NCBI RefSeq assembly: GCF_035084215.1 | Contig: NC_090366.1 | Span: 13,578,001 to 13,642,000, forward strand | Origin: Heptranchias perlo | Lineage: Eukaryota | Length of the DNA stretch: 64,000 bases | Direction of reading: 5' to 3' | Shown: one piece after another, positions 15,401 through 18,400 of the stretch | How positions within the stretch are numbered: the stretch's first letter is position 1 | Layout of the letters: every line of letters starts with the position of its first letter | The notes under the pieces: generated by a model | Database searches by the model: none | What the model saw: only the letters and a program-made list of their open reading frames with translations | What the model was told of the DNA's origin: nothing | Translations under genes and position numbers: made by a program

Positions 15401-18400
15401 GCACGTTGTGTTGAAGGTGCAGGTTATTTTGCAAGATTTACCCTCAATAATTTCAGGAGCGAATATTGTGGGTTTATCTGTGAAATCTGGCAGAGAATAC
15501 ATCCTTTTAGTTAAATATAACTTGGAGAATCAGTTCAAATATAAACCACAGTCCCACAAGGGGGTCTTTTCTCCAGAAAAGAGAAGGCTGAGGGCTGACC
15601 TGATAGAGGTCTTCAAAATCTCATAAAATTGACAATTAATGGACACGGTCAAGACATTGAATCATTGATTATAAAGTGAGTATTAACGGTTGCTTTAAGA
15701 CTGAACTGGAAGGTATCGCCTGGTTATTGATGATCAGAAGCTGCGTTATTATAATGTTTTGTGTTAATAGTTTATATTATTTCCCATTGACTGTTGAAAG
15801 TGAATTGATGAGTAATTATAAACAGCACTTACCGGAAACGTGAAGCTGTGTTGCTGGGTAATAGTTGAAGTTTTCCCCGTTGTCAAATTCTACTCTGAAA
15901 AAATAAGGACCTGCATCTTCCGCTGTGATGTTGTTTATAATCAGGGAACAGTCGCCATCTTTCAGGTCTCCAGACAGACCGGTCCGATGTCTGAACCGGT
16001 CCGACTCGTGTCTGTGGTCCTTGGAGTGAAAGGCTAGGGGAGCCCATGGTCTCACTTTCTCAGTGTTAAACCAGACTCCATCTCGCTGTTTGTTTGCCAA
16101 ATTCGATGGATAACTGTAATGGCATGGAATCAGGGCACACAAACCTTTCTGTGCTCTCACATCTCGTGGGGTGTCGGCCTTCCACTCTTGTGACAATACA
16201 GCTGAGGAGAAAAAATATCGATATTTAGCACTGGATGGCTCGTAGATCCACTGGACTCGAGATCCACCATCCCCCCCTTCCATCACTGGCCTACTGTGGC
16301 TCCAGTGTGTACCATCTACAGGGTACACATGGAACTCCCCAAGGTTACAGTGACAGCATCTCCCTCCCCTGCAACCTCTACCACCCAAAAGGTCAAGAGC
16401 AGCAATGTTGGAGGTTGCTCATCAACTCCAAGTTCCCCTCCGAGTCACACACCATCCCGAGTTGGAGATATATCGGCCGTTCCTCCATCGTCACTGGGTC
16501 AATATCCTGGAACTCGCACACGGACTGCAGCGGTTCAAGTAGGCGGCTCACCACCACCTTGTCAAGGGGTAACTAAGGATGGGCAATAAATGCCGGCCTC
16601 GCCAGCGACACCCACATCCCAAGAATGAATATAAAAAGCAGCACAGTACATTCTGTGATTGGGGATGAAGGGTTGGGCAGTCAATATTATTGTGAAACCA
16701 AATATCGGATAGTCTCATATGTGTAATGTGACACCGAGCCACATAAGGAGATATTAGGACAGGTGATCAATAACTGGGTCAAAGAGGTAGGTTTTAAGGA
16801 GCGTCTTAAAGGAGGAGAGAGAGGGGCGGAGAGGTTTAGAGCGTGAATTCCAGAGCTTGGGCCCAGACGGCTGAAGGCATTGCCTCCAATGGCGGGGTGA
16901 AGGAAATCGGGGATGCATCAGAGGCCAGAATTGGAGGAGCGCAGAGATCTCGGAAGGTTGTCGGCCTGGAGGAGATTACAGAGATAGGGAGGGAATTGAA
17001 GACGTGGATGAGAATTTTAAAATGGAGGCGTTGCTGGACCGGGAGCCGATGTCGGTCAGCGAGCACAGGGAGGTGATGGTGAACGGGACTCGGTGTGATT
17101 CCAGTCTCAGCTCTGAACGTGATGGAGGCCCAGCTCTGACGGGTTCACAACTTTCACAGATGGTCTCACTGAGTGTTTGTGAAAACTGAACTGGGCCCCA
17201 CAATAAACGCTGACAGCAGACACCTCTTGTTCCCTGTTCTTCTGCAAAATTCATCATTTCAGCAGGAAGAAGAGTTGCTGATAAGGAACTTCAATCGTAG
17301 AATCTTACAGCACAGAGGAGGCCATTCGACCCATCGTGCCTGTGCTGGCTCTTTGAAAGGGCTATCCAATTAGTCCCACTCCCCCCTGCTCTTTCCCAAT
17401 AGCCCTGCAAATTTTTCCCCTTCAAGTATTTATCCAATTCCCCTTTTGAAAGTTATTATTGAATCTGCTTCCACCGCCCATTCAGGCAGCGCATTCCAGA
17501 TCAGAACAACTCGCTGCGTAAAAAACATTCTCCTCATCTCCCCCTCTGGTTCTTTTGCCATTTATCTTAAATCTGTGTCCCCTGGTTACCGACCCTCCTG
17601 CCGCTGGAAACAGTTTCTCCTTATTTATATCGAAACCCCTCATGATTTTGAACACCTCTATTAAATCTCCCCTTAACCTTTTCTGCTCCAAGGAGAACAA
17701 TCCCAGCTTCTCCAGTCTCTCCACATAACTGAAGTCCCTCATCCCTGGCACCATTCTGGTAAATCTCCTCTGCACCCTCTCCAAGGCCTTGACATCCTTC
17801 CTAAAGTGCGGTGCCCAGAATTGGACACAATACTCCAGCTGAGGCCTAACCAGTATTTTATAAAGGATTTAGTATATCTTCCTTGCCTTTATATGTCTCT
17901 ATTTATAAAGCCCAGGATCCCATATGCCTTCTTAACAGCTTTATCAACTTGTCCTGCCACCTTCAAAGATTTGTGTACGGAAACCCCCAGGTCTCCCTCT
18001 TCCTGCACCCCCTTTAAAATTGTACCATTTGGTTCATTTAGCCATATAATTGCCATTCAATATTTTCAATGAATCTCTTGCTGTCGGGGAGTGAAATCTG
18101 CCCGAATCTGATCCGGATAACGAGTCAGAGACTCGCTCGACGACACAACTTACTGATGTCAGTGAAGGCTTCGTTCGATCCGATCTCTACAGTTTCCTGC
18201 CCGATGGGTTCGGTTAGAATTACCCTCCCGATAGAATCATTTCCTGTTCATTCGAGCCTTAAATAAACCCTGTATTTATATAGCGCCTTTAACGTAGTAA
18301 AACGTCCCAAGGTGCTTCACAGGAGCGTTAATCAGACAAAATTTGACACCGAGCCACATAAGGAGATATTAGGACAGGTGACCAAAAGCTTGGTCAAAGA

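What the first reader, a model, noticed from the sequence alone, without database searches (positions are those of the whole stretch)
15833..16201. Paralogue divergence is concentrated in the sialic-acid-binding loops of the V-set domain
Seen: A versus B differ at 0 aa in the leader exon, 1 aa in domain 2, 2 aa in domain 13 and 1 aa in domain 14. The V-set differs at about 18 aa plus a 3-aa indel, clustered in [11 protein letters not shown] vs HTETGDSI and [15 protein letters not shown] vs [15 protein letters not shown], while the essential Arg is kept. Established: the C-C' loop and F-G/G strand set linkage specificity in Siglecs, and CD33r Siglecs evolve rapidly there. Inference: positive selection, or conversion from another paralogue, giving different glycan specificities on a shared scaffold.
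Basis: partly seen in the sequence, partly recalled or inferred. Interest (0 to 1): 0.7.

Follow-up and report, generated by a model that had tools for sequence, protein, structure and literature searches.

The report
Ancient binding loops in shark Siglecs
Six neighbouring shark immune-receptor (Siglec) genes are nearly identical except for two short loops at the predicted sugar-binding site, which come in two versions that are likely far older than the gene copies and were likely kept while gene conversion evened out the rest, so they would give two sugar specificities on one scaffold.

Summary
The V-set exons of genes A1 and B1 differ at 18 residues plus a 3-residue indel; 14 of the 18 lie in the C-C' loop and the F-G/G segment, and the essential Arg is kept. 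Recent positive selection is not supported. The genome holds six close copies, four with A loops and two with B loops, and both loop types occur with each of two cytoplasmic tails. The framework groups by species (88/92 identical; best foreign match 80%). The A-type C-C' loop recurs in seven other shark species and a sawfish, and B's F-G segment resembles the common non-A class. The best reading is ancient loop types preserved under gene conversion, the known 'peak of divergence' pattern, and the reverse of primate paired Siglecs. Against it: a tree test on loop columns did not reject a species clade (p=0.17), and B's C-C' loop has no foreign match. Different glycan specificity is untested, and CD33-related status is unproven.

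The parts
18855..18894 (-). Gene A1 leader exon
   Evidence: identical to B1 leader
15833..16201 (-). Gene A1 V-set exon (A-type loops)
   Evidence: spliced to D2 in RNA-guess contigs
16035..16067 (-). A1 C-C' loop tract, residues 45-55, A type (11 residues, PWAP motif)
   Evidence: shared with other sharks and a sawfish
15858..15902 (-). A1 F strand / F-G hairpin / G strand tract, residues 100-114
15894..15896 (-). A1 essential Arg102 codon (AGA; AGG in both B copies)
15193..15486 (-). A1 domain 2 exon
1635..14365 (-). A1 domains 3-12: ten near-identical 282-nt Ig exons
182..1035 (-). A1 domains 13 and 14; TM and ITIM-type tail exons lie just outside the window (G000:C45:13576642 to 13574716)
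44102..44141 (-). Gene B1 leader exon
42082..42441 (-). Gene B1 V-set exon (B-type loops)
42284..42307 (-). B1 C-C' loop tract, 3 residues shorter than A
42107..42151 (-). B1 F strand / F-G / G tract, non-A class; Arg codon at 42143-42145
25762..41735 (-). B1 domains 2-14
22295..24225 (-). B1 transmembrane exon and two cytoplasmic exons with ITIM-type motifs (ends approximate)

Best explanation
A1 and B1 are two of six near-identical shark Siglec genes whose V-set domains carry one of two versions of the C-C' and F-G/G loops, versions that are likely much older than the present gene copies and were likely retained by selection while gene conversion homogenised the surrounding framework, so that they would recognise different sialylated glycans. 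Shown: the cluster, the two loop types, raised silent divergence at the loops, species-wise framework and type-wise loop residues, and both loop types on both tail backbones. Inferred: conversion as the homogenising process; transfer of both loops together as one cassette between the ITIM-tail and YxN-tail backbones; selection keeping both types; different ligands.
For: Six copies within about 140 kb: A1, A2, A3, A4 with A loops; B1, B2 with B loops. All differences fixed between the four A and two B copies lie in codons 45-55 and 100-114 except N90D; three of them are silent changes in codons with the same residue (T46, R102, Y113), against 0 fixed silent changes in about 70 framework silent sites (p=0.003). 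V-exon dS 0.18 vs about 0.03 (p about 1e-5 to 2e-4). Outside the loops the copies group across loop type: A2 and B2 share an intron insertion and differ at 0 of 300 positions around the TM exon, A1 and B1 at 1 of 300; from the D2-D3 intron on, the split follows tail type (A1+A4+B1 vs A2+A3+B2). A1-B1 framework 88/92 identical, best foreign 80%; A1's C-C' loop is 2/11 identical to B1 but 9/11 to sawshark, catshark and sawfish domains; B1's F-G tract is 7/15 to A1 but 13/15 to Mustelus P0022. Strict A motif in 20 of 114 foreign V domains from 8 labelled species groups. Framework tree: A and B copies one clade (100/100); loop tree: they fall on opposite sides of a 92/99 split (35 of 119 rows, chosen by me). 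Quartets: framework sites group by species (5-17 vs 0-1), loop sites by type (P54/S, L55/I, F100/Y, N112/S), p<0.05 in 8 of 9 non-independent quartets. The same picture recurs in Carcharodon (framework 90/92, loops 4/11 and 9/15), Cetorhinus and Pristiophorus. The signature is described for duplicated genes under conversion (PMC3924837, passages).
Against: The AU test on the 26 loop columns did not reject keeping the five Heptranchias rows together (delta lnL 9.1, p=0.173). B1's C-C' loop has no close foreign match (best 40%), so its age is not shown directly. A1's F-G tract scores only intermediate on an A-versus-non-A profile (-0.28; B1 -9.75), so it carries lineage-specific changes. In 5 of 9 species holding both classes, the best same-species A/non-A pair is not closer in framework than the best other-order match. 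A first strict version of this test was met by only 8 of 23 A-type domains. The A class was defined by its loop and the main search used A1 as query, so its apparent conservation is partly circular. A1-B1 framework silent divergence (6/69.5) is itself above background. All foreign data are predicted proteins, not DNA. Selection and ligand difference are not measured.
Confidence: 0.65

Rival explanations
1. One-time import: a B-type loop cassette was converted into one copy of a young A-type cluster from a diverged paralogue that has since been lost, then spread to a second copy; there was no long coexistence on a shared scaffold.
For: It explains raised dS and B's resemblance to the non-A class. 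B1 and B2 tracts are nearly identical (3 nt differences). Other sharks hold many 60-75% identical paralogues that this genome lacks.
Against: No donor among the 6 DNA matches in G000 and nothing between 85% and 41% protein identity. The 44 codons between the two loops carry only one fixed difference, so a single tract would need later re-homogenisation, or two separate tracts hitting exactly the two loops. The pattern recurs in three other species.
Confidence: 0.17
2. Neutral heterology barrier: the loops once diverged (indel plus dense mismatches) and now simply resist conversion, with no selection to keep two types and possibly no difference in ligand.
For: The C-C' tract contains a 9-nt indel and both tracts are mismatch-dense. 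dN/dS in the F-G tract is about 1 (10 replacement, 2 silent). That heterology impedes conversion is recalled knowledge.
Against: Both loop types sit on both tail backbones, so the loops do move between genes. The only islands in the V exon coincide with the two predicted ligand-contact segments. The A loop residues W52-A53-P54 are kept across several shark orders and a sawfish.
Confidence: 0.1
3. Recent positive selection: after a recent duplication, replacement changes piled up in the binding loops of one copy.
For: Replacement changes cluster in the loops far beyond chance. B's C-C' loop is unique among 114 foreign domains. The first Ig domain of primate CD33-related Siglecs evolves fast (PMC6288428, passages).
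Against: dS is raised as much as dN; dN/dS is 0.43 for the exon and about 1 for the F-G tract, never clearly above 1. B matches the commonest non-A residue at S54, Y100, N109 and S112, where foreign A-type domains mostly have another residue, which would need repeated convergence.
Confidence: 0.08

Closest known systems
Peak of divergence under gene conversion (human red/green opsin exon 5; RHD/RHCE and protocadherins cited there) - PMC3924837, passages read
   Same: Duplicates homogenised within species except at a small functional target, where divergence including linked silent sites stays high and groups by type across species.
   Different: Here two separate islands of about 33 and 45 nt in one exon, six copies rather than two, and a much deeper apparent age (sharks and a sawfish share the A loop; the shark-ray split exceeding 200 million years is recalled, not from a call). 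The functional difference is untested here.
Primate paired Siglecs 11/16 and 5/14 - PMC5701461 abstract; PMC6288428 and PMC13358205 passages
   Same: Neighbouring Siglec genes with near-identical ectodomains kept alike by conversion, and different tails.
   Different: There conversion covers the binding domain and keeps ligand preference alike, and the partner is a DAP12-coupled activating receptor. Here the binding loops stay different, each type occurs with two tails, and none of the six copies has a charged TM residue.
Siglec-7 and Siglec-8 binding-site architecture - PMC12140324 and PMC8161119, passages
   Same: Essential Arg on strand F; the G-strand stretch and C-C' loop contact the glycan. 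By register, A1 N110-F111-N112-Y113-Y114 would match Siglec-7 K131-W132-N133-Y134-K135 (inference).
   Different: Only about 25-30% identity. That a C-C' swap switches Siglec-7/9 specificity is recalled, not read here, and no binding data exist for the shark proteins.
Sialoadhesin (Siglec-1) and MAG (Siglec-4)
   Same: Best sequence matches (E 1e-13 to 7e-17) and best folds (Z 17.0-17.4, rmsd 1.6-1.9). A long stalk of 14 Ig domains recalls sialoadhesin.
   Different: ITIM-type tail, a multi-copy elasmobranch expansion, and a stalk made of ten near-identical recent repeats; orthology was not tested.

Membership tests
Siglec | N-terminal V-set domain followed by further Ig domains, type I membrane protein | tested here: met
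   Pfam V-set and Ig_CD22; leader, 14 Ig exons, TM and tail
Siglec | Essential Arg on strand F | tested here: met
   R102 aligns with the sialoadhesin and Siglec-5 Arg; Arg in 111 of 119 aligned domains
Siglec | Siglec cysteine pattern (two Cys near strand B, partner on strand E, none on F) and aromatic residues on strands A and G (pattern recalled) | tested here: met
   C21, C26, C84 and W6 align with sialoadhesin residues; F111 in both types
Siglec | Siglec V-set fold | tested here: met
   Model pLDDT 86.8; TM 0.83-0.88 to 1qfo; Z 17.2
Siglec | Sialic-acid-dependent binding | not testable with these tools
   Needs glycan array or sialidase-sensitive cell binding
CD33-related Siglec subfamily | Membrane-proximal ITIM plus distal ITIM-like motif (consensus recalled) | tested here: met
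   A1, A4, B1 tails carry LLYANI and TEYAQI/TEYAHI; A2, A3, B2 carry another tail
CD33-related Siglec subfamily | Closer kinship to CD33/Siglec-5 to -11 than to Siglec-1, -2, -4 | tested here: inconclusive
   Sialoadhesin and MAG rank first or tie by sequence and lead by about 2 Z units in fold; no tree with mammalian Siglecs was built
CD33-related Siglec subfamily | Synteny with the mammalian CD33r cluster | not tested
   Flanking non-Siglec genes were not examined
Paired inhibitory/activating Siglecs | Near-identical ectodomains with different tails | tested here: met
   A1/A4/B1 vs A2/A3/B2
Paired inhibitory/activating Siglecs | Activating partner with a charged TM residue | tested here: not met
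   No Lys/Arg/Asp inside the hydrophobic TM stretch of any of the six copies
Divergence peak maintained under gene conversion | Flanks closer between paralogues than between species; target region grouped by type, with raised silent divergence | tested here: met
   the AU test alone was inconclusive (p=0.173)
Divergence peak maintained under gene conversion | Selection on a functional difference at the peak | not testable with these tools
   Needs binding assays and population data

The most novel reading that the evidence does not exclude
Sharks run a modular Siglec system: one ancient, conserved binding site (the PWAP-type C-C' loop with its partner F-G segment, kept since sharks and rays split, for a fixed self glycan) and variable sites are moved by gene conversion as loop cassettes onto a species-homogenised scaffold and crossed with different signalling tails, giving a specificity-by-signal grid.
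Probability: 0.3. Interest if true: 0.75.

Novelty: new variant of a known kind. Interest (0 to 1): 0.52.

Why it matters
It supplies a natural loop-swap experiment: two Siglec V-sets that differ almost only in the two segments thought to set glycan preference, so the loop-determines-specificity rule from mammals can be tested in the oldest jawed-vertebrate lineage with four small constructs. It also shows the opposite use of gene conversion from primate paired Siglecs, and an unusually conserved version of a loop that is otherwise the most variable part of the domain. It warns that low divergence between such genes misdates them and that clustered replacements need not mean recent positive selection.

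Tried and rejected
One search aligned loci of mixed orientation and was discarded; redone. The single-sequence fold (pLDDT 33.5) was useless; the alignment-based model was used. The AU test on loop columns did not reject a species clade. The strict per-domain test gave 8 of 23, partly because near-A loops were classed as non-A; the relaxed class has 28 of 114. Searches with B1 found no foreign protein above 74% and added seven proteins, P0093-P0099, which were not put into the alignment. No donor paralogue was found in G000. No sequencing run is on record as RNA; B1-specific letters were not seen in the two RNA-guess runs laid on B1, which proves nothing. Earlier-findings look-ups returned nothing. 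Literature searches for shark Siglec conversion or loop evolution found no relevant paper; the library lacks most subscription journals, so this is weak. An assembly artefact or mere allele pair was rejected: six copies at distinct places in different gene contexts, and both loop types in run contigs (all from one sample, so not independent).

Full report
Setting. The window is G000:C45:13578001-13642000. A database protein identical to the A1 V-set (P0029) is labelled Heptranchias perlo, the sharpnose sevengill shark, on a contig of the same length as C45. The window holds two complete minus-strand Siglec-type genes, A1 and B1. Each has a leader, a V-set exon, 13 further Ig exons with canonical splice sites and open frames, a TM exon and an ITIM-type tail (A1's lies just outside the window).

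Observation. A1 and B1 V-sets differ at 18 residues plus a 3-residue indel. Fourteen of the 18 lie in residues 45-55 and 100-114; 0 of 2000 random placements were as clustered. In the alignment-based model (40 sequences, pLDDT 86.8) residues 45-54 are the coil between strands 39-44 and 55-58, that is C-C', and 100-114 cover the end of strand F (97-105) and the hairpin into G. The model matches sialoadhesin and MAG best. R102 aligns with the sialic-acid Arg. In Siglec-7 the matching G-strand stretch and C-C' residues contact gangliosides, and in Siglec-8 residues 56-59 set sulfate specificity (PMC12140324 and PMC8161119, passages).

Silent sites. By Nei-Gojobori counts the V exon has 13.5 silent differences in 82.6 sites (dS 0.18) and 20.5 replacement differences in 274 (dN 0.079); gap placement moves these to dS 0.18-0.20 and dN 0.077-0.092. 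The other 13 Ig exons give dS about 0.03 and dN about 0.012, and four introns 1.4-3.9%. Both classes are raised 6-7-fold and their ratio does not differ (p=0.52). The F-G tract alone has 10 replacement and 2 silent changes, dN/dS about 1; the C-C' tract is saturated and its alignment ambiguous.

The cluster. The genome holds six close copies within about 140 kb and then nothing above 41% identity. Four have A loops (A1-A4), two have B loops (B1, B2). Every difference fixed between the types is inside the two tracts except N90D; three fixed changes are silent in same-residue codons, against none in about 70 framework silent sites (p=0.003). Outside the tracts, variants are shared across types: Q38H is in A3, B1 and B2, and an intron insertion is shared by A2 and B2. 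From the D2-D3 intron onward the copies split into two backbones: A1, A4, B1 (14, 5, 14 Ig domains; ITIM-type tail) and A2, A3, B2 (3 Ig domains; a tail with three YxN motifs, the last also fitting a relaxed ITIM consensus; motif meanings recalled). A2-B2 differ at 0 and A1-B1 at 1 of 300 positions around the TM exon. All four loop-by-tail combinations exist, so the loops have moved between backbones, both together; none of the six is chimeric, which with six copies is weak evidence. Contigs from three runs guessed to be RNA join V to D2 across the intron, and show A1-, A2/A4-, A3- and B2-type letters; these runs share one sample with the DNA runs, so they are not independent.

Other elasmobranchs. 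A search with A1 gave 92 proteins, from which 138 V hits, 122 distinct rows including A1 and B1, were aligned. I dropped five rows (one unrelated V-set, three partial, one duplicate of A1), leaving 114 foreign domains and five Heptranchias rows. A1 and B1 share 88 of 92 framework residues, the best foreign domain 80%. In the C-C' loop A1 shares 2 of 11 with B1 but 9 of 11 with sawshark, catshark and sawfish domains; in the F-G tract B1 shares 7 of 15 with A1 and 13 of 15 with a Mustelus domain. The strict A motif occurs in 20 of 114 domains from eight labelled species groups, always as a loop of the same length, and goes with Phe at position 100 (17:2, against 29:53 in the rest; rows not independent). 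On 35 hand-picked rows, the framework tree makes the Heptranchias copies one clade (100/100) and the loop tree puts A and B on opposite sides of a 92/99 split, but the AU test does not reject a Heptranchias clade on the 26 loop columns (p=0.173). Quartets of A1, B1 and one foreign A/non-A pair show species-wise framework sites and type-wise loop sites, p<0.05 in 8 of 9 (pairs chosen by me, not independent). An A/non-A pair with a species-specific shared framework is seen in 4 of 9 species that hold both classes (Heptranchias 91/92, Carcharodon 90/92, Cetorhinus 84/92, Pristiophorus 84/92) and not in the other five. A profile trained on foreign domains classed by C-C' alone places B1's F-G tract with the non-A class (-9.75) and A1's in between (-0.28). 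B1's C-C' loop has no close foreign match (best 40%).

Mechanism. Shown: two loop types, raised silent divergence, framework by species and loop residues by type, crossing with two tails. Inferred: an A-type and a non-A-type Siglec existed early in elasmobranchs; frequent short conversion tracts and segmental duplication made the Heptranchias copies alike; tracts erasing either loop set were selected against, while whole cassettes could pass between backbones; the two types bind different sialoglycans through the same Arg. I put this at 0.65, against one-time import from a lost donor (0.17), a neutral conversion barrier (0.10) and recent positive selection (0.08). Long-term diversifying selection on non-A loops is not excluded: among same-species paralogues of other sharks, C-C' positions differ at 0.65 per site against 0.21-0.27 in the framework.

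Comparison and novelty. The pattern is the peak of divergence known from opsins and other duplicates under conversion (PMC3924837, passages). It is the reverse of primate Siglec-11/16 and -5/14, where conversion covers the binding domain and keeps preferences alike (PMC5701461, abstract; PMC6288428 and PMC13358205, passages). The genes meet all Siglec sequence and fold criteria tested; CD33-related membership is inconclusive. Five searches found no paper on shark Siglec loops or conversion; the whale shark paper mentions Siglecs once in a list (PMC8455134, passages). The review of Siglec evolution by Bornhofft and colleagues (2018) was seen only as a reference entry and may bear on this; no supplements were read. 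Verdict: a real feature and a new variant of a known kind, interest 0.52.

Noticed in passing
window 50607-64000 and G000:C45:13641973-13642323 (L012); inverted copy at 13697483-13714063 (L011): A neighbouring Siglec-like gene whose V-set lacks the essential Arg (Tyr at that place) and that ends in the same YxN tail exon; present twice in inverted orientation.
   Followed up: partly
window 1635-14365 and 27237-40614: Ten near-identical 282-nt Ig exons per gene, most at about 1.17-kb spacing: a recently expanded, homogenised stalk. A4 has one such exon, so stalk length varies between 5 and 14 domains on the same backbone.
   Followed up: partly
window 19674-19748 and 45749-45808; also upstream of the other four leaders: Isolated copies of the first YxN-tail exon lie upstream of each leader exon, probably relics of the duplicated unit.
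   Followed up: no
P0001, P0002, P0003, P0004, P0006, P0007, P0010: Predicted Siglecs of other sharks and rays hold several tandem V-set domains (at least seven distinct in P0001) with mixed loop types; either true multi-V receptors or fused gene models.
   Followed up: no
P0024, P0027, P0050, P0041, P0081, P0002, P0030: White shark and catshark relatives end in a short tail with an Arg in the TM stretch, as activating paired receptors would; some carry A-type loops. Not found among the six Heptranchias copies.
   Followed up: no
P0013 first V domain; P0011 V domain at residue 335: Chimeric loop sets in other sharks: A-type C-C' with non-A F-G (Cetorhinus) and the reverse (Pristiophorus).
   Followed up: partly
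G000:C45:13655509-13655868 (B2): B2 has Asn at position 100, the residue sialoadhesin has there. A spliced contig in run X7 shows this B2-type F-G tract with A-like N90: an allele or a chimeric contig.
   Followed up: partly
window 42226-42463, run X9: A contig from another coded organism matches the framework almost exactly and carries an A-type C-C' loop (14 other letters and 9 gap positions against B1 over 250 nt).
   Followed up: no
P0029, P0023, P0100: Public annotation misleads here: A1 is named a heparan sulfate proteoglycan core protein; P0023 fuses the Arg-less neighbour with A4; P0100 (2301 aa, not read) is probably a similar fusion with B1.
   Followed up: partly
G000:C45 near 3.4-3.7, 10.2-10.5 and 13.1-14.0 Mb: Twenty further Siglec-like V-set matches (26-41% identity) lie in three groups on the same contig; several of those translated lack the essential Arg.
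   Followed up: partly
window 14500-14961, 40749-41212, 44477-46914, 50827-52322: A 33-bp minisatellite in the D2-D3 introns and upstream of B1, and a repeat of about 58-bp period at 50.8-52.3 kb.
   Followed up: no
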